Origin: Candidatus Falkowbacteria bacterium
GTDB lineage: Bacteria > Patescibacteriota > Patescibacteriia > UBA11705
NCBI GenBank assembly: GCA_003518055.1
Contig: DOZJ01000002.1
Span: 55,225-119,224 of the forward strand
DNA length: 64,000 nt
Reading direction: 5' to 3'
Shown here: positions 11,649 to 62,700 of the stretch, piece after piece
How the letters are laid out: each line of letters starts with the position of its first letter
Position numbering within the stretch: position 1 is the first letter of the stretch
Translations under genes and position numbers: made by a program
Notes under the pieces: generated by a model
Told to the model about the DNA's origin: nothing
Database searches by the model: none
The model's input: the letters and a program-made list of their open reading frames with translations, nothing else

Positions 11649-11790
11649 AGTTTTTTGCCTTGGATTGGCGTTTCAGTCTATGGTATAATACAGATAGTAA
11701 TTTGGTGTTAATTGCCAAGTTATTTGATGCTGGCCGAATCCGGTCTTGATAGTAATTAATTTTTTATCCAATATATTTTAATTTTTCTCT

Positions 11791-12933
11791 ATGAGTTCAC
11801 ACGCAGCCAATAAGGTGGGGATTTCCAAACTTTATGTCAAATTCATCGCGGTCTTTGTTGTCTTGACCATAGTGTTGATTTTTGTCATCTTTTATTTTTC
11901 ATTTTCTCGCGCCTTGATCCGCATCACGCCCAAACCGGCGTCGGTCGCGACCGATTTTATCGCCGATATCAATACTCAGGATAATGAACCCACAGCCGGC
12001 ACGCTCAAAGGATTTCTATTTGAAACCGAGGTTGATATGACCAAGGAATATCCGGCCACCGGGACCAAGGATGCGGAGGGCAATGTCATCGGACAGGTTT
12101 CGATTATCAATAAACGGACTGTTAACCAGCCTCTCGTCGCGACTACTCGGCTGATCACGACTGATGGTGTGCTGCTGCGAATCAAAAACCGCGTGGATGT
12201 TCCCGCCGGCGGATCGGTCAATGCTGATGTTTACGCCGATGATCCATCGAGCTTTACCACCTTGGCGGCAACCAAATTTACCATTCCCGGCTTGTCTGAA
12301 AGCCTCCAAAACGAAGTGTACGCTGAGAGCAAAACTTCATTGAATAGCGCTCCCGGAGCGTTAAAAGTAGTCAAATCTGTTGATGTCGCCCGCGCCAAAG
12401 ATGATTTAACCGCCGCTTTATATCAAAAAGCTTTGGCTGATTTTGAAGCCGAGGTCAGCGAAGGTTACGTTGCGGTTTTGGTTGATAAAAAAGTGGTCGA
12501 AGAAGCGGTCAGCGCCGGTATCGATGATGTGGCGGAGACCTTTACTGTCCGGCAAAAGATGAATGTCACCCTGATTGGACTCGAACAGCCGGCGATCGTC
12601 AGCCTGTCGGCCGAGCGGTTGAGGGAACTCGTCACGGGCGAGCGGGAGTTGAGTGAGATAATGTTGGATAAATTAACTTACGTGGTGCAAAATTATAATC
12701 AGGAAAACAAAACCGCCAATATCAAAGTGCACGCCGAAGGTGAAACCGTATTAAAAGAAAACAGTGAAATTTTGGACAAAAGCAAAATCGCCGGCTTGAG
12801 CGACAAAGGGGTGGAATTATATCTCGATAGTTTTGATGAAATCGAATCAGTTGAAGTTCAGCTGTCGCCATTTTGGGTCAAACGCGTACCGTCTTTACCT
12901 GATAATATAGTTATCGAAGTGGTCACGGATTAG
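11791..12933 (+). CDS. Hypothetical membrane-anchored protein (single N-terminal TM)
   Basis: 380-aa ORF with a TM helix at residues about 17-38. No recognisable motifs. Confidence 0.5.
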   Translation: MSSHAANKVGISKLYVKFIAVFVVLTIVLIFVIFYFSFSRALIRITPKPASVATDFIADINTQDNEPTAGTLKGFLFETEVDMTKEYPATGTKDAEGNVIGQVSIINKRTVNQPLVATTRLITTDGVLLRIKNRVDVPAGGSVNADVYADDPSSFTTLAATKFTIPGLSESLQNEVYAESKTSLNSAPGALKVVKSVDVARAKDDLTAALYQKALADFEAEVSEGYVAVLVDKKVVEEAVSAGIDDVAETFTVRQKMNVTLIGLEQPAIVSLSAERLRELVTGERELSEIMLDKLTYVVQNYNQENKTANIKVHAEGETVLKENSEILDKSKIAGLSDKGVELYLDSFDEIESVEVQLSPFWVKRVPSLPDNIVIEVVTD

Positions 12934-15099: not shown

Positions 15100-15730
15100 A
15101 GATAATCCCCACTTTAGTGGAAGGGTTTTATGAGATATCAGTTCTTTTCCAACACAACATATTTTGTTACCTACAAAACATGTAATAATGGATCGTATTA
15201 TTTTTCTGATGAGGAAAAAGATATTATCTTATCGAAATTGCTAGAAGCCCGGTCAAAATTCATACCCGGATTAAAAGCGTTTGCCATTCTTTCCAACCAT
15301 TATCATCTATTAATTGAAAATGTTGATAGTCGGGCCGCCCAAAAGTTTTTCCAACTATTAAATGGTGGTAGCTCGTTCATTATTAATAAGGATAAAAATA
15401 GTAAATTTAATTATTGGGGGATTCAGGACCGAATCAATTGGCCGGTTAAGACTGAGGGAAAGTTTTTTCAATTTTTAGCGTATGTGGTGGCCAATCCGTG
15501 GCGTCATGGTTTGGTGCGGGAAATAAGTGATTTAAAAGGTTATCGGTATTGTAATTATGACCAAGTTTGCGAAGACTATGGAGAGGCGTTTATACAAGAT
15601 TTAATTTTAAATCGTATTAAGAAAGATGATGAATGAGGTGTTTTCCCCACTAAGGTGGGGCATATTTAATTCATGTAATATAAAAAGAAATAAAATTCCT
15701 TATGTCCCACTTTAGTGGGAGGGTCTATAA
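15100..15730 (+). mobile_element. IS200/IS605-like or REP-RAYT element: Y1 transposase flanked by palindromic hairpins
   Basis: Near-identical hairpin copies 'cccactttagtgg(a/g)agggt' at 15106-15129 and 15704-15727, plus 'ccccactaaggtgggg' at 15645-15660, bracket the 168-aa HuH gene. Confidence 0.6.
15130..15636 (+). CDS. IS200/RAYT-like HuH tyrosine (Y1) transposase
   Basis: HuH motif 'NHYHLLIE'. 'NYWGIQDRI' and C-terminal 'NPWRHGLV' match the COG1943/RayT signature (NPvkaGLV). About 165 aa, typical size. Confidence 0.7.
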   Translation: MRYQFFSNTTYFVTYKTCNNGSYYFSDEEKDIILSKLLEARSKFIPGLKAFAILSNHYHLLIENVDSRAAQKFFQLLNGGSSFIINKDKNSKFNYWGIQDRINWPVKTEGKFFQFLAYVVANPWRHGLVREISDLKGYRYCNYDQVCEDYGEAFIQDLILNRIKKDDE

Positions 15731-39147: not shown

Positions 39148-39432
39148 TCAATGGGTTTGACTTTCAACCAGTGTTTCTCTAATCATTTGCCTTAAAGTAG
39201 TTTTTCCTTTTGTTGTTTTAAAATATTTTTCGCGGCGCAAAGCGTCTTTTTTTGAAAGGTAGGCTTCGTAAAACACCAAAATCATTGGTAGCCTTTTGGC
39301 GGTAGAGACATTTTCGCCTCTCTGATGTTCAAGAACCCTTCGGTCAACCTCAGCCGAATATCCGATATAAAATTTATTATCCTTCAAGCTTTGAAGAACA
39401 TAAACGTAATAGAATTTTTTCACCATACTCAA
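39148..39432 (-). CDS. GIY-YIG nuclease family protein
   Basis: 'YVYVLQS...KFYIGYS...R...H' GIY-YIG core. 94 aa. Confidence 0.8.
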   Translation of the reverse strand: MSMVKKFYYVYVLQSLKDNKFYIGYSAEVDRRVLEHQRGENVSTAKRLPMILVFYEAYLSKKDALRREKYFKTTKGKTTLRQMIRETLVESQTH

Positions 39433-39493
39433 ATTGCAGTGAACCTGAAAAATAAATGGCGAGCCATGAACTCGAGCGTACGCGAGTAGTTCA

Positions 39494-39567
39494 TGGCTCG
39501 AGGCCAGGGATTCGAACCCCGATAGCTGGGACCAAAACCCAGAGTCCTACCATTAGACGAGCCTCGA
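39494..39567 (-). tRNA. tRNA-Gln (anticodon UUG)
   Basis: Hand-folded cloverleaf, 74 nt. Acceptor UCGAGGC/GCCUCGA with U1-A72 and G73 (GlnRS identity elements). D-loop AAUGGUA. Anticodon loop UUUUGGU. T-arm CGGGG-UUCGAAU-CCCUG. CCA encoded. Confidence 0.8.
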
Positions 39568-39883
39568 ATAAGTTTTCAGGTCAAACATATCCGAATCAAT
39601 GCTATCATGGCTTATTTCGTTTGTCAATCGCGGTTTTGTTTGTCGTGTATAACGGATGAGATTAAATCGGACCATAAAATTTTGTGCTGGTCGTGGATCA
39701 GTTTTATGCCGACACTGAATTTGGTTTACCCGCCAATGTTTTTACAACCAGAAAATTATTATCAAGATTTCGTATTCAATATTATAGCAGTTTTTTTTTA
39801 TTCTCCCCAAATAATATTTCCCCCGACCAGCTGGAACGATCGTATTTTTGGAGTTTAGCTATGGTTGAGTTATAATAATCAAT

Positions 39884-45118: not shown

Positions 45119-45165
45119 GCCGGCACTTGATCTCGTCTTGCCATCAAAATTTCAACGAACAATAT

Positions 45166-46113
45166 ATGAAGTATATTTTTTCTTCAATCGGAATAGTCAT
45201 AATCTTGATTCTGATGGGATTATCTTGGGCCTTGTATCAAGATAATAGTTCAGCGGTCGTGCCGGTCACCACATTTAGTGAGTGTGCTTCAGCCGGATTT
45301 CCGGTTCTGGACGGTCCCGTGCGCAAATGCGCCATCGATGGTCGGGTTTTTATTGAAGACAGCCTTGGCGATGTTATTATCGACAAAAACGGCTCATTGG
45401 TTATTATGAAACCGCAATCAGAGCAAGTAGTGACCAGTCCGCTGGTGATTCAGGGGCGAGCGGTCAAAAGCGTCTTCACTTCCGGCGGTCTTGGTTTAGA
45501 GGTTTATGACAACGACGATGTTTTGCTTGGTCGGGATTTGCTTGATCTTGTACCCGAGGCCGCCGACGTCACCTATGGACAGTTCACCGCCGCCATTGAG
45601 CTTGAGCGGACCGATCAACCACGCGGTTATGTCATTGTTAAACCGACATCCGAGGCGGACAACAACAGCGTCGAGCCGATTATAATTCCCATTGCCTTTT
45701 CCGCCGATACCTGGCCGGCCTCAGATTTAGTTGAAACCACAATTTTCTTTCACAACCAAAGCTTGACTCCCGCTGATTCTGGTGATTGCGGTATAGTTTT
45801 CCCGGTTTTTCGTTCAGTCGCGGCGTCCGATGATTTAAGCCTCGAATCCCTGTCAGCATTGGTCAATGGACCCACTGATGAGGAGCGGGCCGCCGGATAT
45901 ACCACATCTTTCAACAGCCGTGTTGTCATTCAGGATCTGCAAATAGCCGATCGGGTAGCTTATGTTGATTTCAACGACCAATTCAGCCGTGATGTCTCGG
46001 ATGAATGCCGCGTTCAGGCTTTGACGGAGCAGGTCAAACAGACAGTGCTTCAATTTCCGGGTATTGATGACGTAAAAATTTCCGTCAATGGTCAATTTGA
46101 TGATATTTTTTAA
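45166..46113 (+). CDS. GerMN/Gmad2-domain secreted protein
   Basis: C-terminal 'VAYVDF...LTEQVKQTVLQFPGIDDVKISVNGQ' is typical of GerMN. N-terminal anchor. Paralogue of 49889..50839. Confidence 0.55.
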   Translation: MKYIFSSIGIVIILILMGLSWALYQDNSSAVVPVTTFSECASAGFPVLDGPVRKCAIDGRVFIEDSLGDVIIDKNGSLVIMKPQSEQVVTSPLVIQGRAVKSVFTSGGLGLEVYDNDDVLLGRDLLDLVPEAADVTYGQFTAAIELERTDQPRGYVIVKPTSEADNNSVEPIIIPIAFSADTWPASDLVETTIFFHNQSLTPADSGDCGIVFPVFRSVAASDDLSLESLSALVNGPTDEERAAGYTTSFNSRVVIQDLQIADRVAYVDFNDQFSRDVSDECRVQALTEQVKQTVLQFPGIDDVKISVNGQFDDIF

Positions 46114-46839: not shown

Positions 46840-47937
46840 ATGAAACAACGCTACAAAGTTTTGTTGCTATTTCTGATTATTTCGCTCATTCCTCTTGTGA
46901 TGTCAGTCGGTTGGGGAGTCTATACCGTTAAGCAAGCCCAAGATGAGGGGTTTTCTTTTCTCCAAGCGCAGATTACACGGGCGGTGAGCAATAATATGTC
47001 ATTGTATTTTCAGCAGAAAATTGAAAACACCTCTATCCGAGTGGTCCAAGAGGGCGCGAGTGACATCTCCGTCGAGGACCAACAATTTATTTTGACCGGC
47101 CTTTTGGCCAAGGATCAGGGTTTGGTTGAAGCCTCAATCGTCAATCGCGGCGGAATCGAAAAAAGTAAAATGGTTAGAGGCGCGCAGGCTTTTATCATGA
47201 GTAATACCAATTTTGCTGATCAAGAATTTTTTCATCTCAATCGCGGCGGTGAGTATTTTGTTGATTCAATTCAAACAACAGCTGCAGGGAAAACGGTGTT
47301 GATCGCCTCGCCCATATTGAGTTCTACCGATGAATACCTTGGAAGTTTGCTTGCCAGATATAACCTAACCGAAGTTAAAAATATTTTGGATGAAGTCACT
47401 CAAAGCGGCCACGGTTATGCTTATGTCGTGGATAAGGCCAAAAATCTGCTCATGACCACCCACAATGTTGATGGCTTAAAACTTAATGTCGGGCTTGGAA
47501 TTTTTGCGTCTGATTCTAAGTATCAAAAATTCCTGCTTGAAGGGGAAGATGTTTATTCCGGCCTTCAGGGCAGTCTGGTTCACGGCACCATCGACAAGCT
47601 GCCCGGTGTTGATTGGTGGCTGGTGGTGGAATGGCCGGTGGCTGATTTGTCCGACATCATTCGTGTCAACTTAATTCAGCTCGCCATTTTAACGTTGATT
47701 GTTTTGCTTGTTTCCGCAGTCGTGAGTCTAATCTATATTAATCGCGTGAACAATCAATTCAACCAAGTGATCGAAGGCGTTAAAATTATTGACAAGGGCA
47801 ATCTGAAATTCCGGATCAAAGCTCCGACCAATGATGAGTTGGAGGATCTGGCTACGGCCGTGAATAGTCTCGCCGATAAACTGGAACGATGCCAACCAGA
47901 GGGAGAAGATAAATCCAAATCCGGATCAGCATCATAA
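46840..47937 (+). CDS. Membrane sensor-like protein: periplasmic Cache-like domain + HAMP, no output domain
   Basis: Two TM helices bracket an extracytoplasmic domain. A HAMP-like amphipathic segment follows the second TM. The protein ends there. Confidence 0.45.
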   Translation: MKQRYKVLLLFLIISLIPLVMSVGWGVYTVKQAQDEGFSFLQAQITRAVSNNMSLYFQQKIENTSIRVVQEGASDISVEDQQFILTGLLAKDQGLVEASIVNRGGIEKSKMVRGAQAFIMSNTNFADQEFFHLNRGGEYFVDSIQTTAAGKTVLIASPILSSTDEYLGSLLARYNLTEVKNILDEVTQSGHGYAYVVDKAKNLLMTTHNVDGLKLNVGLGIFASDSKYQKFLLEGEDVYSGLQGSLVHGTIDKLPGVDWWLVVEWPVADLSDIIRVNLIQLAILTLIVLLVSAVVSLIYINRVNNQFNQVIEGVKIIDKGNLKFRIKAPTNDELEDLATAVNSLADKLERCQPEGEDKSKSGSAS

Positions 47938-47963: not shown

Positions 47964-48590
47964 TTGCATATGGGGAGTTTTGACGTCCCGCCGGCGGCCA
48001 ATGAAGATTTGCGCAATTCAGAGGTTATGCTTAAACTTTTGGAACGAGGTGATCCGGACGACTTGAAAAAAATTGCCGTTTTTCATCAAGTTCCTATCGA
48101 CAAGGTTAAATTATTCAGTGATTTTGCCAAATTGCGACTGCGGACGGTGACCCGTTCTTGGGATGATGTTGTCGACCGGGAAAAAAATAACCCCAAAGCC
48201 ACCGACGAGGAATTGGCGCTCGGCGGCTACGCGGAAATGATTGAGCCGCAAGTCAGGAACGCTGTCTTGGCTCTTCGGCGCAAGGGTTACTCGACTTATG
48301 AATCCGGCTTTTACGACGAAAATTTTCAAGTCATTAGTTGTCAGGATAAACCATTCACAAATTACGTTTTCCCTGAAGCCTTTGTCGCCTCATTGAAATC
48401 CAAGGGTGTGGAGATTACGATTATCGACGATGAAATGATTCAGCTCAAATTTGACCGGTTTATGGATCTGGCTGAGATTAAACAGATTTGGGATGATATC
48501 GCGGAAATTTTGCCGCCGCTTGGCCGTCCGGCTGAACCCAGTCAAACCGGGTTTGCCCGAAATTTCAGAGATTCTCAACAAGCAGTATGA
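47964..48590 (+). CDS. Hypothetical protein
   Basis: 208-aa ORF. Confidence 0.45.
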   Translation: MHMGSFDVPPAANEDLRNSEVMLKLLERGDPDDLKKIAVFHQVPIDKVKLFSDFAKLRLRTVTRSWDDVVDREKNNPKATDEELALGGYAEMIEPQVRNAVLALRRKGYSTYESGFYDENFQVISCQDKPFTNYVFPEAFVASLKSKGVEITIIDDEMIQLKFDRFMDLAEIKQIWDDIAEILPPLGRPAEPSQTGFARNFRDSQQAV

Positions 48591-48661
48591 TTACTTAAAC
48601 CATATTTTTATTTCGGCAGGAGCAGGCTAGGCTTGTAATATAATTGTGAAATAAATTGAAT

Positions 48662-48690
48662 AAAAAAAGCCGCGATGTTTTCGCGGTTTT
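48662..48690. terminator. Bidirectional terminator (A7-ccgcga-tgttt-tcgcgg-T4)
   Basis: Between convergent genes. Confidence 0.55.
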
Positions 48691-48693
48691 ATC

Positions 48694-49143
48694 TTACTCG
48701 TTCCAGTTTTCAGGCTGCATCTCAAAGTCGGTCGGTTTCCAGACGACGACCGTGCGGTCAAAGTCTAGTCCGGCCTGTTTCAAATACCATGCAAAGGCTT
48801 CCACCGCCAGCCCACGGTTAATCGCGTCAGAGTTAACCACGATGTCCGGCAGGAACGGCCGATCATCGTCGGTGTGGATGACATAGTCAAGGTTCGAGAA
48901 GGTGTTACCAGCCTCAAAGTCCGCTGCCACGCGGGCGGCCGCATCAAGTCCTGCCGCTTCAGCGTATTTGCGCCACCGGGCAGCATCCTCCTCAAAGCTG
49001 ATCCTTCCCAGAATGGTGAAACGATACAGTCGCTGTTCACCTCGAACCCATACAGTCACATCAAAATCATCCCATGGTACGGTAGATGTCTGATGATTCG
49101 CAAGCGGTCCGAGCGTCGTTACCGTCAATCGCAGCTTCTTCAT
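48694..49143 (-). CDS. Hypothetical protein (GC-rich islet, gene 2 of 2)
   Basis: 149 aa. SD 'gggagg'. Confidence 0.55.
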   Translation of the reverse strand: MKKLRLTVTTLGPLANHQTSTVPWDDFDVTVWVRGEQRLYRFTILGRISFEEDAARWRKYAEAAGLDAAARVAADFEAGNTFSNLDYVIHTDDDRPFLPDIVVNSDAINRGLAVEAFAWYLKQAGLDFDRTVVVWKPTDFEMQPENWNE

Positions 49144-49231
49144 TCTCGCCTCCCGTGGTTGTTGGGATTTAGAGAAACCCCGACAATCGCAGGCTGGCGC
49201 AGCCGCTTCTCTTCATGTTTCTCCTTCCGGG

Positions 49232-49525
49232 TTAGTCGTTCTTCGTCAAATACGCCACCAAGGACTGAGCCTCTTCGGGCGTCCAGGCAAACCGCTGGGT
49301 CAGGCAAGAAATCACCTGCTCGTTAGTCCGGCCGCCAGCCAGAAGCTTGCGCGCCACCTTGCACGGCATAATGCTTTCATCGGACAGAGCGTGAGAACCA
49401 CCGGCATGTTCAGTCCAGCGATAAGGCCGGCGCAGATTTTCCCGCGCCGCCCTGAACCAACGCTTCGGACAATGATTATTATCCCGGCCAATAGTTTTGA
49501 CGAAACGGCGATGCGTTCGGCTCAT
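49232..49525 (-). CDS. Hypothetical basic protein, possible HTH at the C-terminus (GC-rich islet, gene 1 of 2)
   Basis: 97 aa. SD 'ggagg'. Arg-rich N-terminus. Confidence 0.5.
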   Translation of the reverse strand: MSRTHRRFVKTIGRDNNHCPKRWFRAARENLRRPYRWTEHAGGSHALSDESIMPCKVARKLLAGGRTNEQVISCLTQRFAWTPEEAQSLVAYLTKND

Positions 49526-49631
49526 GATTTCCTCCGGCCGCGGTTAGGTTTCTATTCGAAATCCCCGCAGCTGAAGCAGTTGATCATCCCTTTCTTTCAT
49601 CGTATCCCTCCATTTGGGAGTATCTTTGCTA

Positions 49632-49660
49632 ATTTTAGCAAAATTGTAATGGTTTGTCAA
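49632..49660 (-). promoter_or_regulatory. Consensus promoter TTGACA-17-TGcTAAAAT (minus strand)
   Basis: Reverse complement reads ttgaca-aaccattacaattttgc-taaaat. Confidence 0.5.
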
Positions 49661-49888
49661 TAGACCAGATTTTTTTGCTTGACTTTTTTAGTAAAATAAG
49701 ATATAATTTTAATATAATAAAAGATATTTAAAATCAGTTTGCATCTTCTGAAGCAGCAAATCCTACCTCTCAGTTTGCCATTTACGGCGAACTGAATTTA
49801 TGGGGTTAATTTTAAATCTTTTCTTATTGCGCTTGCCAAAATAGCTCAATTTGGTAGGATACCTAAATAACTATTTTACTTCTAATTT

Positions 49889-50839
49889 ATGATGAAAAAT
49901 CTTTTACTTGTTATCATTATCGTCCTTTTGGCCGCTTTGCTTGGATTGGCCGCGTTCTTTTACTTCGGTGAACGCGCTGCTGAGCCGACTGACAATACTA
50001 ATTCTACTACTGATATCACAGACGTCGCGAATGGGGCCAATGGTTCTCGAAGCGATGATTCAAATACAAATTCTGATCCTCGAACAAACCAGCCGTCGAA
50101 CACTCGTCCGGTTGATGAGTTAATTCGGGTGGTCAGTCCGAAAGTGGGGGACACTGTGTCCAACCCGATCCAGTATAGCGGTGAAGCCCGCGGTCAATTT
50201 TATTTCGAGGGCAGCTTTCCGGTTCGGCTGGAGACACCGAGTGGAAAAATTATCGCTCAAAGTTTCGCGACCGCTCAGGGTGAATGGATGACCGAGAATT
50301 TTGTGCCTTTTACCGGTCAATTGACTTTCAATTATGCTGATATTGAAGACGGTCGCCTTAATTTGGTATTTGAAAAAGATAATGCCGGTGACTTGCCTCT
50401 GACCGCCAATGACCGCAAGGTTATTGCGATCTATATTCAGGACGCGCCGGATAGAGTTTCTTTTAATGTCTATTTCCTCAACGACGACCTCGATAACAAC
50501 CCGAACTCCTGCGCTGAAGTCTTTCCCATAGTGCGCAGCGTTCCGTTTACCCAAGCTGTGGCCCGAGCCGCGTTGGAGACTCTGATCGAAGGCCCTGATG
50601 GCTTGGAATCAGAATCAGGCTACACCAGCGTGGTGCCGACAGCGACGATTAATTCGTTGGCAATCAATAATGGTACTCTAACGGTTGACTTCCGTGGTAA
50701 TAGCAATGACTGGAGCGGCGGATCATGCCGAGTCACCGCTATGCGTCAGCAAATCCTGCGTACCGCCAGTCAATTCCCGACGGTGAATAATGTAGTTATC
50801 TCCGTCAATGGTGAAGTTGATACGATTTTCCAACCATAA
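49889..50839 (+). CDS. GerMN/Gmad2-domain secreted protein (paralogue)
   Basis: Same C-terminal pattern '...VISVNGEVDTIF'. N-terminal TM. Confidence 0.55.
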   Translation: MMKNLLLVIIIVLLAALLGLAAFFYFGERAAEPTDNTNSTTDITDVANGANGSRSDDSNTNSDPRTNQPSNTRPVDELIRVVSPKVGDTVSNPIQYSGEARGQFYFEGSFPVRLETPSGKIIAQSFATAQGEWMTENFVPFTGQLTFNYADIEDGRLNLVFEKDNAGDLPLTANDRKVIAIYIQDAPDRVSFNVYFLNDDLDNNPNSCAEVFPIVRSVPFTQAVARAALETLIEGPDGLESESGYTSVVPTATINSLAINNGTLTVDFRGNSNDWSGGSCRVTAMRQQILRTASQFPTVNNVVISVNGEVDTIFQP

Positions 50840-52095: not shown

Positions 52096-52124
52096 TTGAC
52101 AATATTTATTAATTGTGATATAAT
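52096..52124 (+). promoter_or_regulatory. Consensus promoter TTGACA-17-TGaTATAAT
   Basis: ttgaca at 52096-52101. 17-nt spacer ending tga. tataat at 52119-52124. Confidence 0.6.
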
Positions 52125-52168
52125 TTTGTGTTGTTTTCCACCACGGAGAAGGTGAAAGGGGATACCGA

Positions 52169-53077
52169 ATGAGCAGTGCAGCCTTCGCCACTTTTCCAAT
52201 GTATGGCGCTTTTCAGTCTGCTGAAGAACACATGGGTATCAAGAACGCGCGCTGGCAGCCCGTGGCAGCGGAGTCTTTGCAGCAGCGGTTTGTTGAATTT
52301 TTGGAGCGCAATCGTGGTAATGTTGGAACCGTGAATCGTTTCATGAAGTGTATCGCGACCAGAGACGTGGCTGAGTTTAATCGCTTCATGGTGGAAAATC
52401 ATCATCCGGAAATGCAGCTTCAAAGCCTCGGTGATATGCAGTTCGCCGCCGGTGCGGTCATGGATGTGCTCGTCAAGTGGCTTCAGATCGGCGATCCCGT
52501 TGACATTTGCCAGTTCGGCCATCAGGGACCGACTTATCCTGGTGTTCATCTGAAGAAGGGCGTGACCGTTTACTCCACGGCTGAAGATCACGGCCGATGC
52601 GTGGTCAAGATCATCACGCAGGATCCGGATGTCGAAGTGCTTTTGATCAAGGCCAAACCAGGAGCCGATGATGACATGGACGGCCTGACTCTCACTGACC
52701 GCGGCCGGTTCATTATTGGCATGGTTGATCGGTTGCCCCGTTCCCGGACTTTTTCCGGTGTGGAATTTCCGATGGTGATGTTGGACACCGAACCGGATGT
52801 GAACTGGCTTTGCGGCTTGTCCACGGTTGACGACGGAGGGGTGCCGGCCTGGGTGGCTCAGGCGCGGATGCACGTCCGCCTGCGGGTCAACCTCGAAGGG
52901 GCGCGCGCTGAAGCTGCTTTTGAAATGGTTGTCCTTCGTGGCGGCGGCGATTTCAATCCGCCATATGTCATTGATGGTCCGTTTTACTTCATCATGCGCT
53001 ATCGCGGCGTGGATGAGCCGCTTCTGGTCGCCTACTGCGATGTGGATTCGTGGAAGGATCCGGGCAGTCTCGCTTAG
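52169..53077 (+). CDS. Hypothetical cytoplasmic protein (GC-rich)
   Basis: 302 aa. Extended SD 'ggagaaggtgaaagggg'. The antisense ORF 52109..53095 is His-rich low-complexity and is judged a shadow. Confidence 0.55.
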   Translation: MSSAAFATFPMYGAFQSAEEHMGIKNARWQPVAAESLQQRFVEFLERNRGNVGTVNRFMKCIATRDVAEFNRFMVENHHPEMQLQSLGDMQFAAGAVMDVLVKWLQIGDPVDICQFGHQGPTYPGVHLKKGVTVYSTAEDHGRCVVKIITQDPDVEVLLIKAKPGADDDMDGLTLTDRGRFIIGMVDRLPRSRTFSGVEFPMVMLDTEPDVNWLCGLSTVDDGGVPAWVAQARMHVRLRVNLEGARAEAAFEMVVLRGGGDFNPPYVIDGPFYFIMRYRGVDEPLLVAYCDVDSWKDPGSLA

Positions 53078-53209
53078 TTCGTACACTGATATCAATCAGT
53101 GTTTTTTTGTGCTTGTAGCGGAATCGGCATTTTTTCATTGATTGGTTGACAAATGAATGGTTATTTTATATCATTATATATCGTATCCACCACAGGAAGG
53201 AGCTGCCTG

Positions 53210-53659
53210 ATGTTGTACCGGATTGGGCTTATCCTTGTTGGTCTTTCCCTATGCAGCTGCGGGCCGTCAACCGGATTCATTCGACATCGAATTTCGCGGA
53301 CCACTGATTGGCAGCATGAACGCTTGGCTGATTTGTGGCAGAAAACCGATGGCGGACATCACATTGTCAAAACCGTGGTTGACCCCAAAGATGGCGATGA
53401 ATATTATGTTAAATGCGGTTTCAGGTTTGATCATCAGGCCATGGTTCAGCTCAGCACGGAATATGAGGAGGCGTTACTGAATTTCGCAATTTGCGATCAA
53501 TGCCGATATGATAGACGGTTCGGTCATGATTGCGAAACATTCGAACGAAATACTCGAATTAAGCGCGACGGCTTTACCGGCTTTTTTCAAGAAGGGGAAG
53601 ATCAAAATCCCGAAGCGGTGTGCGGTTTTTTGCGCCTTGATCGTCCGGACTGTTTGTGA
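53210..53659 (+). CDS. Putative lipoprotein
   Basis: Start MLYRIGLILVGLSLCSC after SD 'aggaaggag'. Lipobox L-S-L-C. Confidence 0.5.
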   Translation: MLYRIGLILVGLSLCSCGPSTGFIRHRISRTTDWQHERLADLWQKTDGGHHIVKTVVDPKDGDEYYVKCGFRFDHQAMVQLSTEYEEALLNFAICDQCRYDRRFGHDCETFERNTRIKRDGFTGFFQEGEDQNPEAVCGFLRLDRPDCL

Positions 53660-58131: not shown

Positions 58132-61100
58132 ATGTCAGAAGGCGTCTCATACAATTCAAAAATTTCTCATGAGCTAACCGAATCCAAATCCGTCTTGGAA
58201 TCGGAGATTGAACTCATGGGCAATTTAAATCTTGCCAAAAAATATTTTCGAGAAGAAGAGGCTTTTATTTCCTATCTGAAAGAATTGAAAGGGCAAGAAG
58301 AAGAAAGCCAGAAAAAAAAGACCGACCTCCCGTTTGATCTTGATATCGAAGCCAAACAATTGGCTGAAATGCTGGCGGTCAAAGCTCAAGACAACATTGT
58401 TGGCAGTTTTTTGTTGTCCCTCGCTGGAGGCAGCCGGCTTTGGGCCCAGACCATTAAGTATTATCTTGATATGATCGGCGCTGATTGGGATGAATGGCAC
58501 CGATTGGGCCGAGATATTGAAGGACACGTGGAGTATGATTGGGATTTTCGATCCCGGGATCAGGCTCATGCTCTTGGGGCTTGTTTCAGAAATTTTGATT
58601 TTGACGGTTCGTATGATGTTGAAAGACTGCAGGTTTCGTTTGGTAGCCCGGAGCGGTTTCAAAACAAAAGGAACATCATGTTTTCTCGCTTTATCCGTTT
58701 TGGTCAGCAGCATATCAAGGCTGAATACAGGGAAGTTCAATCAGCTTTGTCATCTGTCTCAATCATCTCGGCCGACAGAATTGCGGACCGCTCATCTGAG
58801 TTGGTTGAAAATATTTTAGCAGGCATCCATGCCAAGCCTTATTCTGACCAAATACAAAATTTGACCAAAATGATAGAGACAGGCCTTGGCGATATTGTTT
58901 TGTTTCATTTGGAAGAATTTAAAATTCAGGATTCCGACCGGTCAGATTTGATTTATTCCATTGGTTCTCATGATCCGGAATTATTTTTTGCTCATTTTGA
59001 TGAATTCAATCTCATTGGACACGCTCAAGCTGAAGAGTTGTTTATGAATCTCTTGGACCGAGAGCCAAGGTTGGCTTTGGCTCACTTGGAGCAGTCTGGT
59101 TTGGATCCCAATCCGGTTATCGACTATCTGATTCACAATCACCCTAAACTTTTTATTCATTATTTGGATGAATTTCTGGTGACTCTGATCCCCGAAGGCA
59201 AAATGGCAGAGTGTGTTCACGCTATCAATAAATATTTTGACCGGCTTTATACCGGAAATCCGGCTAGAGCTGTCAATGAACTCTATGGCTTAAAAATCAA
59301 TAATCCGGTTATTAATGGTTTGATTGAAAAATATTATCTTGAAGCACTTCAAATATTTGTTCCTGATGTATATCAAGAGTTGTTAAAAATCCAGTCCGCT
59401 ATTGAAGACGAAGATAAGGATATAATTTTTTCCAAAAATCAAGATTTCCAACCGGTAATCAAATATTTTAAAGAGAAAGGTTTAAATCGGGGCTACGCTG
59501 ATATCCTTGCTTTGGCCGTTGCCGCAGATGATAAGCTGAGGACCATTAAGGCAACATATAATGGTCATGAGTATGATGAAGACATTAGTTTTCGTTATGG
59601 CGCGTCGCATTTTCGGGATGCTGACAATAGGATTGTTCCGGGTCATAGTTCATCTGAGGTGGTTCATCGTTATCTCATTGATAAATTTGTCCGAGAGGAA
59701 GACTGGCATAATGCTATCCATAGCTGGGTGGCCTTTTTCCGAGATGGGATGACGGCCAACTCGAACGATCTCGAGTTTTTTGAAGATCTGTTATTCAATG
59801 TATTGAGATCTGCGCCTGAAATAATTATGAATACTGCAATCTTGGAAGATCTGCCGAAATATCGATTTCCTCGGGAAAAAGAACTTCTTGATATCATGGT
59901 CAAGTTGACGGACGATTGGTTCTTTTTCCAGTCTGGTAAAAACGCCGAGGCTTTGCGCAGCCGGTTGAGCGAGTCGCAAAAATTGACTCTGATCAATAAA
60001 CTCATAGAGCAAAATCCGGTTTATCTGGCTGAAAAATTCAAATTGATCAGGCTCAAGAACAAAAAACAGGAATATGAGATGTTGCGCCGGTTGATCAGGG
60101 ATGGGATTGAACCGTTTAGCTATTTTTCTTCTCCCGGCCAAGCGCTCAAAATTTTACTGGCCAGCAATGTCGGTCGTTTGTGGGACGGCTATCAAGATCC
60201 GGAGCACAGGCGGGAAATAATCAGCCATCTTTTATCCATCAAGGATACGATCTCTCCGGAGACTTGGGATTTTATTCAATCAATTCAAAAAGAATCACAT
60301 CGTTCCTATGATATCAGTCAATTGTCCTTAGACAGCTTCAAAGCAATTGACTATGTTCGCCAAAATAAGCCTGAAATTTTTCAAAAGCTACAGGGACCGA
60401 GAGCTGACTTCAGGCTCAAGATGTTTGAATGTTTCGAGCGGCTTAATACCCAAAATGTCAATCAGCTGACGCGCATTTTGTCGGATATAGAAGAACTATC
60501 AGATGGTATCGAGTCTAAATTACGTCGAAAGGTTGAATCGTATTCTGTTGTTCGCAACGCTGCTCCGGCTGAGAGAGAGAGAATCATTAAAGATCAAATT
60601 CAAGCAGCGATTCACAATCTCAAAGAGCCCGAGAGAAGTATATATGGGACTCTGCGTTCAGCTTATAGTGATGAGGTCTATGATTATATCGCCTTGGCCT
60701 TGGCCACTCAAAGAAAATTGCCTGATTTGATTACTACAATCAATAAAGTTCAGGAAGGCCTCAAGGATGAATCGTCAAAGCGCTATATTTCCGAAGACAA
60801 GCTTTTAGATTTTTGTTTGCGGGACAATCAAATCACAGCCAGATACAACTTGCTCAGAAACAATGTTAGTCAATTAAAAGCATTCAATATATTATTTGGA
60901 GATAATTTGTTTGAATCTCCGTTTCAAGGCGGGCGACAGGAATTGCTGTACTTGGATCTGTTATTTGATGCCCCCCCGGACAGACAGCAGGCGATTTTGG
61001 GCGGAGCGGTTGACTTTGATTCACTGAGCCGCGGGTTGGAGCGGGTTGAAGTTATCAAGTTGACTTTGCAGCTGCTGCCATATTTGGAGTTTGAAAAAGG

Positions 61101-62700
61101 CCAAAGTGAAGTGGAGCTTTTTCAGGGGTATATCCGAGAATTTGGCCTCCTAAATGAGCCTGTAATTTTTTCTGAATACAAAAAAATCAAACAAGGCAGT
61201 GCAGTTTCTCCTGCCTTTGCTTCCTTGGGGGTAAAAAATTTGCCGGCAGTGGCCGGGGAATCAGAAACTGAAGCCAATCGCCGAATCAGCCGGATGCTCA
61301 ATAATATCAGGCACGTGATGAGGCAGCTGAGAGATGATATTATTTTGACCGGCGAAATCAACCCTGACCTTTTGACCAATGACTTAGCTTTGGCTGTTTT
61401 TCGGTCCTCTACTCATTTTGATGAAAGTCAATGGCGCCGGTCATATAGTTTTGAAAAAATGATTGCAGAATTTTATCAAGAAACGGATCAGGGGCTGATT
61501 GCCCCCTTGCCTCGGGAATACCGAGCTGAAATTTTCACGGTTAAAAAGCTGGCCGATGAGAATGAAATTCCGGAGTTTGAATTTTCAGAAGTATCAGCCA
61601 GTCAATTTGAGCGTTTTATCGCTGTCGCCAATGAAACTCTGCGTTTGATTGATTTTCATGGATCAGGCCCGGCTGCTTTCAGAGAAATTGCCACTCGCTG
61701 TCAAGCTGGTTTGCGTGAGTATCTGGACAGTTTATCAGCCAATCTTGAACAAACAAAATCCAACTCCAGTCTGCCGGCAGATAAAAAGGAAAAAATTATC
61801 TCTAGTCTGGAGTCACAGTTTAAAGCTCATCAACAGCTATTCCTAGCTCTGGATCACCCTGAAAACATTGTTCAGGCTTTAGCTGATTTTGAAATTCAGC
61901 AGCAAATTAAAAAAGAGAATAAGTATACCAGTCCCTTTTTACGTTTAGCTTCTCTAGTGGCCAGTTATGGGCAGGATCCCAAAGTGGCCGACCTTCTGCA
62001 GAATATCTCCAAAGAAGATGACATCAATTCGGCGGCCTTGCGTCAAATTGGTGAGTTGGTCAACAACAATTTAGCTCAACATGCATTGCCCGCTTTAAAT
62101 TTATCTAATAAACAGATCGCCAAGATAAGACAAATATTGGGCATATCGACATTTAGCGATGAATTGTCTCGGATTCAAGGTTATGAAAGCGGCCGGTTTG
62201 AAGAGTTCGGCATGCTGCCCACCCGTGGTTTTCTCGGAGAACTCAGCGGTTATTATTGCGACGCTTGCTGGACCAGCCGCACTTCTATCATGAAGGCAAA
62301 CCCTCGAATGACTGCGGTGGCGTTTGTCGGTAATTTGGAAAATGAAGCTCAGCGCAAAATTGTGGGTGGCAGTCTTTTGATTGAAACCGAAGCCGGCGGC
62401 GAAAAAGTGATGATCATTCGAGGCTTCAACCCAAAACAAAATACTCTGGCCGGCGCCAATGCTGAAGATTTTTTTGAACAATTTTCCAGTTCTGTGGCTA
62501 GAATTGCCAAAGACCGCGGCTGCACCAAAGTGATTGCTCCGGTTTTTAATCCGGGGGCCATGAGCAATCGTCAGGAGGTGTTGAGTTATATGGATAAGCG
62601 TTATAGCAAAAGTAAAAAGGTAAAACTTGATGAGGAGATATCTTTCAATGGTTATAATCTGGTTACCAGTTGCGTAGTAATACGCGATTTAAAGTCTTAA
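58132..62700 (+). CDS. Giant hypothetical cytoplasmic protein (1522 aa), no recognisable domains
   Basis: Uninterrupted frame. Largely helical-looking. C-terminal about 200 aa Gly/Cys-containing globular region. No signal peptide. Confidence 0.7.
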   Translation: MSEGVSYNSKISHELTESKSVLESEIELMGNLNLAKKYFREEEAFISYLKELKGQEEESQKKKTDLPFDLDIEAKQLAEMLAVKAQDNIVGSFLLSLAGGSRLWAQTIKYYLDMIGADWDEWHRLGRDIEGHVEYDWDFRSRDQAHALGACFRNFDFDGSYDVERLQVSFGSPERFQNKRNIMFSRFIRFGQQHIKAEYREVQSALSSVSIISADRIADRSSELVENILAGIHAKPYSDQIQNLTKMIETGLGDIVLFHLEEFKIQDSDRSDLIYSIGSHDPELFFAHFDEFNLIGHAQAEELFMNLLDREPRLALAHLEQSGLDPNPVIDYLIHNHPKLFIHYLDEFLVTLIPEGKMAECVHAINKYFDRLYTGNPARAVNELYGLKINNPVINGLIEKYYLEALQIFVPDVYQELLKIQSAIEDEDKDIIFSKNQDFQPVIKYFKEKGLNRGYADILALAVAADDKLRTIKATYNGHEYDEDISFRYGASHFRDADNRIVPGHSSSEVVHRYLIDKFVREEDWHNAIHSWVAFFRDGMTANSNDLEFFEDLLFNVLRSAPEIIMNTAILEDLPKYRFPREKELLDIMVKLTDDWFFFQSGKNAEALRSRLSESQKLTLINKLIEQNPVYLAEKFKLIRLKNKKQEYEMLRRLIRDGIEPFSYFSSPGQALKILLASNVGRLWDGYQDPEHRREIISHLLSIKDTISPETWDFIQSIQKESHRSYDISQLSLDSFKAIDYVRQNKPEIFQKLQGPRADFRLKMFECFERLNTQNVNQLTRILSDIEELSDGIESKLRRKVESYSVVRNAAPAERERIIKDQIQAAIHNLKEPERSIYGTLRSAYSDEVYDYIALALATQRKLPDLITTINKVQEGLKDESSKRYISEDKLLDFCLRDNQITARYNLLRNNVSQLKAFNILFGDNLFESPFQGGRQELLYLDLLFDAPPDRQQAILGGAVDFDSLSRGLERVEVIKLTLQLLPYLEFEKGQSEVELFQGYIREFGLLNEPVIFSEYKKIKQGSAVSPAFASLGVKNLPAVAGESETEANRRISRMLNNIRHVMRQLRDDIILTGEINPDLLTNDLALAVFRSSTHFDESQWRRSYSFEKMIAEFYQETDQGLIAPLPREYRAEIFTVKKLADENEIPEFEFSEVSASQFERFIAVANETLRLIDFHGSGPAAFREIATRCQAGLREYLDSLSANLEQTKSNSSLPADKKEKIISSLESQFKAHQQLFLALDHPENIVQALADFEIQQQIKKENKYTSPFLRLASLVASYGQDPKVADLLQNISKEDDINSAALRQIGELVNNNLAQHALPALNLSNKQIAKIRQILGISTFSDELSRIQGYESGRFEEFGMLPTRGFLGELSGYYCDACWTSRTSIMKANPRMTAVAFVGNLENEAQRKIVGGSLLIETEAGGEKVMIIRGFNPKQNTLAGANAEDFFEQFSSSVARIAKDRGCTKVIAPVFNPGAMSNRQEVLSYMDKRYSKSKKVKLDEEISFNGYNLVTSCVVIRDLKS

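What the first reader, a model, noticed from the sequence alone, without database searches (positions are those of the whole stretch)
48662..49660. Two-gene GC-rich minus-strand islet with its own consensus promoter
Genes 49525..49232 and 49143..48694 both have GGAGG SD sites and share the promoter TTGACA-17-TGcTAAAAT at 49660-49632. The block is flanked by a bidirectional terminator and an AT-rich, structure-prone intergenic region. The upstream gene is small, basic and Arg-rich with a possible C-terminal helix-turn-helix, which may be regulatory. The downstream product is unknown.
Basis: seen in the sequence. Interest (0 to 1): 0.55.

Follow-up and report, generated by a model that had tools for sequence, protein, structure and literature searches.

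The report
Conserved orphan two-gene operon with uORFs
This is a real, self-contained two-protein operon of unknown function, found only in two related Candidatus Falkowbacteria species. It was inherited with its neighbours rather than recently inserted, and each of its genes is preceded by a short upstream reading frame and a hairpin that hides the gene's ribosome-binding site.

Summary
Minus-strand ORFs 49525..49232 (97 aa, pI 10.4) and 49143..48694 (149 aa, pI 4.7) have GGAGG-type SDs, an 11/12 extended -10 promoter (49660..49632) and an intrinsic terminator (48686..48670). GC is 0.54-0.57 against 0.455 for the window.

The implied reading of a recently acquired islet is not supported:
- A second species (Ca. 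Falkowbacteria CG10_..._39_11) carries the same module in the same neighbourhood.
- Protein identity (64% and 42%) and synonymous divergence match the flanking orthologues.
- There are no mobility marks and no phage, plasmid or IMG/VR relatives.

The GC excess recurs in the sister genome, about +0.09 in both. In the window, roughly two-thirds comes from amino-acid composition.

New here: each gene is preceded by an SD+ATG uORF (49600..49544, 18 codons; 49216..49169, 15 codons), conserved in both species. These are the only such uORFs among 60 genes in the window. Each ends in a hairpin that pairs with the downstream SD. I read this as a translational relay, which is inferred, not shown.

Both proteins lack any known family. 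The 97-aa protein has an Arg-rich N-terminal half and a predicted three-helix C-terminal domain. Function is unknown. Interest is modest.

The parts
49632..49660 (-). Sigma-70-type promoter TTGACA-17-TAAAAT with an extended -10 TG (-35 at 49660..49655, TG at 49640..49639, -10 at 49637..49632)
   Evidence: Scores 11/12 in the scan. CATTGACAAA and AATTTTGCTAAAAT are identical in the sister species while the spacer differs.
49606..49611 (-). SD (GGAGGG) of uORF1
   Evidence: Seen in the sequence. The sister species has AAGGAG at the equivalent place.
49544..49600 (-). uORF1, 18 codons plus stop: MKERDDQLLQLRGFRIET*
   Evidence: Same length in the sister species (MNRKQVHNLRPREFRLET*), with the C-terminal RxFR[IL]ET conserved. 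Chance of such an SD+ATG uORF in dinucleotide shuffles: 10% (window) and 0.6% (sister species).
49532..49576 (-). Leader hairpin 1. An anti-SD (CUUC...) inside uORF1 pairs with the SD of gene 1. The apical stem is UUUC/GAAA, and the uORF1 stop codon UAA sits in a 3-nt bulge.
   Evidence: Independent MFE folds give the same architecture in both species, z = -2.0 and -3.0. The RNAalifold consensus has 17 pairs; two of the four compensatory pairs lie in this hairpin. SD pairing probability is 0.77, rank 5 of 58 genes.
49232..49525 (-). Gene 1: 97-aa basic protein (pI 10.35, 13% Arg). Conserved Arg-rich N-terminal half and a three-helix C-terminal domain.
   Evidence: ORF and translation. 63-64% identical to the sister-species orthologue. 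AF2 pLDDT is 72-88 for residues 51-97. No family hit.
49221..49226 (-). SD (AAGGAG) of uORF2
   Evidence: Seen in the sequence. The sister species has AGGAG.
49169..49216 (-). uORF2, 15 codons plus stop: MKRSGCASLRLSGFL*
   Evidence: The sister species has a 13-codon uORF, MASHTPLWPAGFI*, ending at the same aligned UAA. Shuffle chance is 3% and 2%.
49149..49181 (-). Hairpin 2 (GGGGUUU-CUCU-AAAUCCC, 49181..49164), the conserved CCCAAC-ACCAC tract, and the SD of gene 2 (GGGAGG, 49154..49149)
   Evidence: The nucleotide block is conserved. In the sister species the MFE pairs CUUGUGG with CCACAGG of the SD region, z = -2.4. In the window the fold is not better than shuffles, z = -0.4. RNAalifold gives 10 pairs, 1 compensatory. 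SD pairing probability is 0.72, rank 10 of 58.
48694..49143 (-). Gene 2: 149-aa acidic protein (pI 4.74) with the conserved motif DRPFLPDIV-NSD-INR
   Evidence: ORF. The only relative among 1.84 billion cluster representatives is the 145-aa sister-species protein P0003, 43% identical, E = 6.5e-30. No family hit.
48661..48686 (-). Intrinsic terminator: stem-loop CCGCGAAAACATCGCGG plus a T-run. Possibly bidirectional with the convergent 208-aa gene.
   Evidence: Found in the scan. The core GCGAAA(A)CATCGCGG and the T-run are conserved in the sister species.
49679..49707 (+). Back-to-back divergent promoter TTGACT-17-TATAAT for the Germane/Gmad2 gene. It is context, not part of the operon.
   Evidence: Scores 11/12. 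The sister species also has a divergent 11/12 promoter next to the module's promoter.

Best explanation
The region is a lineage-restricted, vertically inherited operon of Candidatus Falkowbacteria. It effectively contains four reading frames.

**Layout.** A near-consensus promoter drives an mRNA with this order: SD-uORF1 (18 codons), hairpin, gene 1 (97-aa Arg-rich basic protein), SD-uORF2 (13-15 codons), hairpin, gene 2 (145-149-aa acidic protein), intrinsic terminator.

**Proposed mechanism.** In the free mRNA, the SD of each protein gene is paired with a complementary stretch that lies inside the preceding uORF. A ribosome translating the uORF melts that helix. It terminates at a UAA placed inside the hairpin, 17-18 nt (uORF1) or 25 nt (uORF2) upstream of the main ATG. 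This frees the SD, so the protein gene is translated only when its uORF is translated. Synthesis of both proteins would then be gated by initiation at uORF1 and kept sequential, a translational-coupling relay.

**GC-richness.** It is mainly a property of the encoded proteins (Arg, Ala, Gly and Asp rich), plus a modest synonymous GC3 offset kept in both species. It is not a sign of recent transfer.

**What is shown and what is inferred.**
- Shown: anatomy, conservation, composition, and the absence of known relatives.
- Inferred: uORF translation and coupling.
- Guess only: the two proteins act together as a basic nucleic-acid-binding protein and an acidic partner, either regulator and antagonist or toxin-antitoxin-like.
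For: **Second species**
- It has the same promoter hexamers, both uORFs, both genes and the same terminator in the same order.
- The module sits in the same neighbourhood, between the Gmad2/Germane-YibE_F side and the dCache/HAMP side.
- Flanking orthologues are 48-85% identical; the pair is 64% and 42%.
- Among identical residues, the codon differs in 0.49 and 0.42 of cases for the pair, against 0.49-0.62 for three neighbouring genes.
- Arg codon preferences follow each host.

**uORFs**
- Of 60 genes in the window, only these two have an SD+ATG uORF ending within 40 nt of the start.
- Shuffle frequencies for the four uORFs are 10%, 3%, 0.6% and 2%.

**Structure**
- The SD-occluding hairpin upstream of gene 1 is recovered independently in both species, z = -2.0 and -3.0.
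- The consensus structures contain compensatory pairs.
- SD pairing probabilities are 0.72-0.81 for three of the four genes and 0.67 for the fourth, against a window median of 0.45.

**Composition**
- Amino-acid content alone predicts GC of 0.52-0.54 in the window against 0.55-0.58 observed.
- The residual synonymous excess has z = 2-2.9 in the window and 3-4.9 in the sister species.

**Precedent.** uORF-mediated translational coupling with a sequestered SD has been shown experimentally elsewhere, for E. coli iraD (PMC5574718) and S. meliloti uORFs (PMC13285730).
Against: - Only two distinct sequences exist; all 16 fetched loci collapse to two alleles. Covariation support therefore rests on a handful of pairs.
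- In the window, the fold of the second intergenic region is no better than shuffles, z = -0.4.
- SD occlusion is high but not unique: ranks 5 and 10 of 58 genes.
- There are no expression or ribosome-profiling data.
- Conservation of the uORF1 C-terminus could reflect RNA structure rather than translation.
- The persistent synonymous GC3 excess in both species is not explained by the model.
- Protein function is unsupported by any homology. AF2 for the 149-aa protein is unusable, pLDDT 44.
Confidence: 0.6

Rival explanations
1. Horizontally acquired islet. The pair came in as foreign DNA with its own promoter and terminator, either recently or in the common ancestor of the two species, and has not fully ameliorated.
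For: - GC and GC3 are outliers in both genomes.
- It is the only minus-strand unit within a long plus-strand run.
- Among 1.84 billion cluster representatives, gene 2's only relative outside its own cluster is the sister-species protein P0003. For gene 1, a 5.8-billion-protein word-index search found only the two Falkowbacteria proteins.
- The genes immediately flanking it differ between the two species.
Against: - The position is syntenic in both species.
- Protein and synonymous divergence match the vertically inherited neighbours.
- Arg codon choice is host-like.
- There is no tRNA, integrase or transposase at the borders. The only flanking direct repeat (17 nt, 82%, AT-rich) is no better than about 20 other chance repeats in 3 kb.
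- There are no relatives in phages, plasmids or IMG/VR.
- Most of the GC excess follows from amino-acid composition.
- A recent event is effectively excluded. An ancestral one is neither testable nor incompatible with the main explanation.
Confidence: 0.15
2. Toxin-antitoxin-like or other addiction/defence pair. One of the two small, tightly co-translated proteins of opposite charge is a toxin and the other neutralises it. The coupling would fix their ratio.
For: - Two small adjacent genes with opposite charge, pI 10.4 and 4.7.
- A strong promoter and translational coupling.
- The second gene evolves fast, 42% identity against 64%.
- The immediate flanks are variable.
Against: - No hit to any PADLOC, Pfam, NCBIfam or PHROG toxin or antitoxin model, even at lenient thresholds.
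- No PDB sequence relatives.
- It is single-copy and syntenic in two species rather than patchy or mobile.
- No recognisable DNA-binding antitoxin domain.
Confidence: 0.12
3. The hairpins are protein-binding sites, not merely coupling devices. The Arg-rich gene 1 protein would bind the two related stem-loops (GGGRUUU...AAAYCC-YAAC) upstream of each gene to autoregulate translation or mRNA stability. The uORFs would be incidental or secondary.
For: - The two hairpins share a motif found nowhere else in the 64-kb window or the 18-kb sister locus.
- The motif is among the best-conserved non-coding nucleotides.
- Protein 1 has a highly conserved Arg-rich N-terminal half.
Against: - The search motif was derived from these four sites, so its uniqueness is partly circular.
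- All four uORFs keep an SD and ATG, which a pure binding-site model does not require.
- No RNA-binding family matches.
Confidence: 0.1
4. A RiPP-like peptide system. The uORF products would be precursor peptides, and the three-helix domain of the 97-aa protein would be a peptide-recognition (RRE/PqqD-like) element.
For: - Foldseek also lists TbiB1 and TfuB1, but at E > 5.
- Short peptide ORFs lie next to the genes.
Against: - The beta-sheet that forms the peptide-binding face of RRE domains is not predicted.
- No modifying enzyme, protease or transporter family was detected in the operon.
- The peptide sequences are poorly conserved except where they overlap the hairpins.
Confidence: 0.03

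Closest known systems
uORF-mediated translational coupling with a sequestered SD. Examples are the E. coli iraD leader ORF (PMC5574718) and S. meliloti uORFs (PMC13285730). The classical operon case, rpmI-rplT, is from my own knowledge.
   Same: - A short SD-bearing ORF upstream of the main gene.
- The main SD is paired in an RNA structure that the uORF-translating ribosome must unwind.
- The uORF stop codon lies close to the main start.
   Different: - Two such cassettes sit in series, one before each cistron.
- The stop codons lie 17-25 nt upstream of the main ATG, inside a hairpin, rather than overlapping it.
- No trans-acting regulator such as CsrA is known.
- Nothing has been tested experimentally.
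Translation attenuation leaders of the cat, cmlA and erm resistance genes (from my own knowledge)
   Same: A short leader ORF overlaps the left arm of a hairpin whose right arm holds the SD of the downstream gene.
   Different: - Those systems need drug-dependent ribosome stalling on a specific nascent peptide.
- Here the uORF runs through the whole hairpin, so ordinary translation should suffice.
- No stalling motif or resistance gene is present.
Type II toxin-antitoxin operons
   Same: Two small, co-transcribed, translationally linked genes with products of opposite charge and a strong promoter.
   Different: - No toxin or antitoxin family matches.
- The pair is not mobile or patchy. It is syntenic in two species and single-copy in the DNA available.
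Genomic islets or ORFan insertions
   Same: Atypical GC, ORFan proteins, own regulatory signals, opposite strand to the neighbours.
   Different: - Conserved in place across species, with divergence like the neighbours.
- No integration marks.
- The GC excess is largely explained by amino-acid composition.

Membership tests
Recently acquired genomic islet | Composition deviating from the host genome | tested here: met
   GC is 0.54-0.57 against 0.455, and GC3 is among the top 3 of about 60 ORFs. About two-thirds of the excess is explained by amino-acid content.
Recently acquired genomic islet | Absent from the syntenic site in related genomes | tested here: not met
   The same module occupies the same neighbourhood in Ca. 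Falkowbacteria CG10_..._39_11.
Recently acquired genomic islet | Integration marks: tRNA or tRNA fragment, target-site duplication, integrase or transposase | tested here: not met
   The only tRNA is 9 kb away, at 39494..39567. No mobility gene lies in the flanks. Flanking repeats are at chance level.
Recently acquired genomic islet | Relatives on mobile elements or in a donor lineage | tested here: not met
   No match in phages, plasmids or IMG/VR. Searches of 5.8 billion and 1.84 billion proteins returned only the two Falkowbacteria species, plus one weak repeat-protein hit judged spurious.
uORF-mediated translational coupling | Upstream short ORF with its own SD and start codon, ending at or near the main start | tested here: met
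   uORF1 is at 49600..49544 and uORF2 at 49216..49169. Both occur in both species and before no other gene of 60 in the window.
uORF-mediated translational coupling | Main-gene SD sequestered in a structure overlapped by the uORF | tested here: met
   Clear for gene 1 in both species. For gene 2 it is clear in the sister species and only weak in the window.
uORF-mediated translational coupling | Main-gene expression depends on uORF translation | not testable with these tools
   This needs reporter fusions or ribosome profiling.
Helix-turn-helix transcription regulator (gene 1) | Match to an HTH family profile | tested here: not met
   The best Pfam hit is Myb_DNA-binding at E = 0.064, 13.8 bits against a cutoff of 24.4, over 16 residues. 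Nothing in NCBIfam or the PDB profile search.
Helix-turn-helix transcription regulator (gene 1) | Tri-helical domain with a polar or basic recognition helix | tested here: inconclusive
Type II toxin-antitoxin system | One partner belongs to a recognised toxin or antitoxin family | tested here: not met
   No PADLOC, Pfam, NCBIfam or PHROG match.
Type II toxin-antitoxin system | Growth inhibition by one partner, relieved by the other | not testable with these tools
   This needs expression experiments.
RiPP recognition element (PqqD-like) protein | Winged-helix fold with a three-stranded sheet next to three helices, encoded beside RiPP-modifying enzymes | tested here: not met
Intrinsic (Rho-independent) terminator | GC-rich stem-loop followed by a T-run at the 3' end of the unit | tested here: met
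   Located at 48686..48661 and conserved in the sister species.

The most novel reading that the evidence does not exclude
The module could be a previously undescribed self-regulating RNA-protein device. The Arg-rich 97-aa protein would bind the two related uORF-terminal hairpins (GGGRUUU...AAAYCC-YAAC) to control the translational relay. The acidic 149-aa protein would be its antagonist or cargo. That would make it a new kind of two-protein, two-uORF autoregulatory or addiction module, specific to a CPR lineage.
Probability: 0.1. Interest if true: 0.55.

Novelty: new variant of a known kind. Interest (0 to 1): 0.33.

Why it matters
- **As a caution.** A GC-rich, ORFan, self-promoted gene pair in a CPR genome need not be foreign DNA. 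Amino-acid composition and comparison with a sister genome explain most of the signal.
- **As a positive finding.** It gives a compact, conserved example of two uORF-hairpin-SD cassettes in series within one small operon. Candidate Phyla Radiation bacteria have almost no experimentally characterised gene regulation, so this is a ready-made construct for testing translational coupling in such organisms.
- **As a new family.** The two proteins define a tiny new family: two species among roughly 15 billion predicted proteins for gene 2, by a full search. For gene 1 only an index-based search was possible. Their function, if found, would be new by definition. Nothing here yet suggests it is of broad importance.

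Tried and rejected
- **Family searches.** Pfam, PHROGs, NCBIfam and PADLOC scans of both proteins and their sister-species orthologues gave nothing at or near threshold.
- **PDB sequence searches.** Profile searches with the two-sequence alignments gave only chance-level hits, E >= 0.27.
- **Structure prediction.** Single-sequence AF2 of the 149-aa protein was unusable, pLDDT 44, so I did not fold-search it.
- **Spurious hit.** The 476-aa hit P0004 in the representative search is an Ala/Glu-rich tandem-repeat protein that matches one helix four times. I judged it spurious.
- **HicA idea.** The GGSH...P motif recalled HicA toxins from memory. I dropped it because no HicA profile or structure matched, even at lenient thresholds: Pfam at E <= 0.1-1 and PDB at E <= 10.
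- **Arg-starvation sensing.** I considered sensing through the uORF1 Arg codons. It was rejected because CGG and CGA are common codons in both hosts.
- **Repeats.** The 13-nt repeat shared by uORF2 and the gene 2 start (D10) and the 17-nt AT-rich repeat flanking the module (D6) are both at the level expected by chance in 3 kb. Neither is visible at the sister-species flanks.
- **Rfam.** Nothing at gathering threshold, and only sub-threshold terminator-like matches at E <= 5.
- **Collection scans.** Genome and metagenome scans returned only the already known sister-species locus.
Full report
**1. The observation**

- The minus strand of 48662..49660 carries two ORFs: 49525..49232 (97 aa) and 49143..48694 (149 aa).
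- Each has a strong SD 5 nt before its ATG: GGAGG at 49535..49531 and GGGAGG at 49154..49149.
- The promoter scan finds TTGACA-17-TAAAAT with a TG extension at 49660..49632, 11 of 12 matches. It also finds a stem-loop plus T-run terminator at 48686..48661.
- GC of the two ORFs is 0.568 and 0.544, against 0.455 for the window. GC3 is 0.63 and 0.60, against a mean of 0.50 (sd 0.057) over about 60 ORFs.
- The proteins have pI 10.35 (13% Arg) and pI 4.74.
- The description is therefore correct.

**2. Source organism and relatives**

- Both proteins are exact matches to hypothetical proteins DF272_01435 and DF272_01430 of a Candidatus Falkowbacteria MAG. They recur only on contigs of the same groundwater population.
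- None of Pfam, PHROGs, NCBIfam or PADLOC recognises either protein.
- A full HMMER search of the 149-aa protein against 1.84 billion cluster representatives found one real relative. P0003 is 145 aa, 43% identical, E = 6.5e-30.
- The same search gave one spurious repeat-protein hit.
- The P0003 contigs belong to Ca. Falkowbacteria CG10_big_fil_rev_8_21_14_0_10_39_11 (PFAP01000004.1) and matching metagenome contigs.
- Profile searches for the 97-aa protein found only the orthologue in that same genome.
- There are no relatives in GenBank phages, PLSDB plasmids or IMG/VR.
- There are no paralogues in the DNA available.

**3. Comparison with the sister species**

- The sister locus (L011 about 9480-10470) has the same parts in the same order:
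  - identical -35 and extended -10 blocks;
  - a short ORF;
  - a 97-aa gene, 63-64% identical;
  - a second short ORF;
  - a 145-aa gene, 42% identical;
  - the same terminator core.
- The module lies in the same neighbourhood in both species. One side holds Gmad2/Germane, YibE_F, DUF6938 and Peptidase_C39_2. The other holds the dCache/HAMP gene, a 117-aa gene and a Germane gene.
- Those neighbouring orthologues are 48-85% identical.
- Among identical residues, the fraction with a different codon is 0.49 and 0.42 for the pair, against 0.49-0.62 for three neighbours.
- The pair has therefore diverged for about as long as its surroundings. It was present in the common ancestor and inherited vertically.
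- The genes immediately next to the module differ between the species. The window has a 208-aa gene. The sister species has extra 109-aa and 119-aa genes, and a 247-aa gene beyond dCache. The module is thus a conserved block in an indel-prone stretch.

**4. Composition**

- The pair is GC-rich in both hosts: 0.55-0.58 against 0.455 in the window, and 0.48-0.50 against 0.397 in the sister species.
- Given each host's synonymous codon usage, amino-acid content alone predicts 0.52-0.54 in the window and 0.43-0.44 in the sister species.
- About two-thirds of the excess in the window therefore comes from protein composition. Arg is 9.8% of codons against 4.9% in the background.
- A synonymous GC3 excess remains, z = 2-2.9 in the window and 3-4.9 in the sister species. 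I cannot explain it.
- Arg codon preferences track each host.
- The one ribosomal protein gene in the window, L9, also has above-average GC3 of 0.565. This is compatible with an expression-linked bias but proves nothing.
- No tRNA fragment, mobility gene or convincing target-site duplication flanks the module.
- A recent insertion is effectively excluded. An ancestral acquisition from an unsampled source cannot be ruled out.

**5.

- Each protein gene is preceded by a short ORF with its own SD and ATG.
  - uORF1 is at 49600..49544 and encodes MKERDDQLLQLRGFRIET. The sister species has MNRKQVHNLRPREFRLET, also 18 codons.
  - uORF2 is at 49216..49169 and encodes MKRSGCASLRLSGFL. The sister species has MASHTPLWPAGFI.
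- Of 60 genes in the window, only these two have such a uORF within 110 nt upstream. Dinucleotide shuffles of the four leaders produce one in 10%, 3%, 0.6% and 2% of trials.
- Each uORF stops at a UAA that lies inside a conserved hairpin. The stop is 17-18 nt (uORF1) or 25 nt (uORF2) upstream of the main ATG.
- Upstream of gene 1, independent MFE folds in both species give the same architecture:
  - an outer helix pairing a stretch inside uORF1 with the gene 1 SD (CUUCAGCUGCGG with CCGCGGCCGGAG in the window; CCUCCGUC with GACGGAGG in the sister species);
  - a bulged UAA;
  - an apical UUUC/GAAA stem;
  - z = -2.0 and -3.0.
- RNAalifold keeps 17 pairs in the leader, four with compensatory changes, two of them in this hairpin.
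- Upstream of gene 2, the sister species shows the same design, z = -2.4. The window's fold is not distinguishable from shuffles. The consensus has 10 pairs, one compensatory.
- Ensemble pairing probability of the SD region is 0.77 and 0.72 in the window, ranks 5 and 10 of 58 genes with a median of 0.45. In the sister species it is 0.81 and 0.67, which would rank first and second against 18 background genes.
- The hairpin motif occurs nowhere else in the sequences held, so it is not a dispersed repeat.
- Rfam has no matching family.

**6. Mechanism**

- The simplest reading is a translational relay. Ribosomes initiating at uORF1 open the helix that hides the gene 1 SD. After gene 1, uORF2 does the same for gene 2.
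- This is the logic of known uORF-dependent translational coupling with a sequestered SD, as shown for E. coli iraD (PMC5574718) and several S. meliloti genes (PMC13285730). Here it appears as two cassettes in series.
- Shown: the anatomy and its conservation.
- Inferred: that the uORFs are translated and that expression depends on them.
- With only two distinct sequences, the covariation evidence is thin.

**7. The proteins**

- Protein 1 has a highly conserved, Arg-rich N-terminal half: MSRT-R-FVKTIGR-NNH-PK-WFRA-R--LRR--RWT-HAGGSH-LSD-SIMP.
- Its C-terminal domain is confidently predicted as three helices.
- The third helix is acidic in both species, so a classical HTH reading is doubtful.
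- Protein 2 is acidic, with predicted alternating strands and helices and the conserved motif DRPFLPDIV-NSD-INR. Its single-sequence model is unreliable.
- My working guess is a basic nucleic-acid-binding protein with an acidic partner. Toxin-antitoxin-like, autoregulatory RNA-binding and RiPP-like readings remain possible but have no positive support.

**8. Verdict**

- The feature is real and well delimited.
The implied 'foreign islet' reading is mostly wrong, and the HTH suggestion is unproven.
- The noteworthy part is the conserved double uORF-hairpin arrangement in an orphan operon of a CPR bacterium. It is a new variant of a known regulatory principle attached to a new, tiny protein family.
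- Interest is modest.

Noticed in passing
window 52169..53077 (+): A 302-aa ORF with GC 0.557 and GC3 0.63, the third GC3 outlier alongside the pair. It has no family, phage or plasmid match and no orthologue in the sister species. It is a better candidate than the pair for a lineage-specific insertion. It gives weak PDB hits to serpin C-termini (neuroserpin, E = 0.24, residues 234-281), and by eye shows serpin-like hinge motifs (EGARAEAAFEMVV, DGPFYFIMRY). The 328-aa antisense ORF 52109..53095 is probably a by-product of the high GC.
   Followed up: partly
window 49679..49900 (+): A consensus promoter TTGACT-17-TATAAT (49679..49707) lies back-to-back with the pair's promoter. It drives a leader of about 180 nt for the Gmad2/Germane gene that folds much better than shuffles (-40.1 kcal/mol, z = -3.2). 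There is no Rfam match. Back-to-back 11/12 promoters also occur in the sister species.
   Followed up: partly
window 47964..48590 (+); 53153..53659 (+); 58132..62700 (+); L011 8641..9381, 11699..12442: The syntenic block is indel-prone. The window has a 208-aa ORFan, a 168-aa ORFan and a 1522-aa giant protein that lack counterparts in the sister locus. The sister locus has extra 109-, 119-, 247-, 106- and 158-aa ORFans. None has a Pfam match where tested.
   Followed up: partly
window 45127..46113 (+) and 49889..50839 (+): Two paralogous Gmad2 + Germane domain proteins flank the region. Both are conserved in the sister species, at 48% and 58% identity. This architecture is better known from spore germination proteins and is unusual to see duplicated in a CPR genome.
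   Followed up: no
window 15130..15636 (+); 39148..39858: These are low-GC outliers. One is a 168-aa ORF with GC 0.34 (z = -3). The others are small ORFs with GC 0.36 on either side of tRNA-Gln (39494..39567), one of them a GIY-YIG domain protein. This is a more classical place to look for an insertion.
   Followed up: no
window 46840..47937 (+): A dCache_1 + HAMP protein of 365 aa with no detectable output domain, conserved at 69% identity in the sister species. There it lies directly convergent with the module.
   Followed up: no
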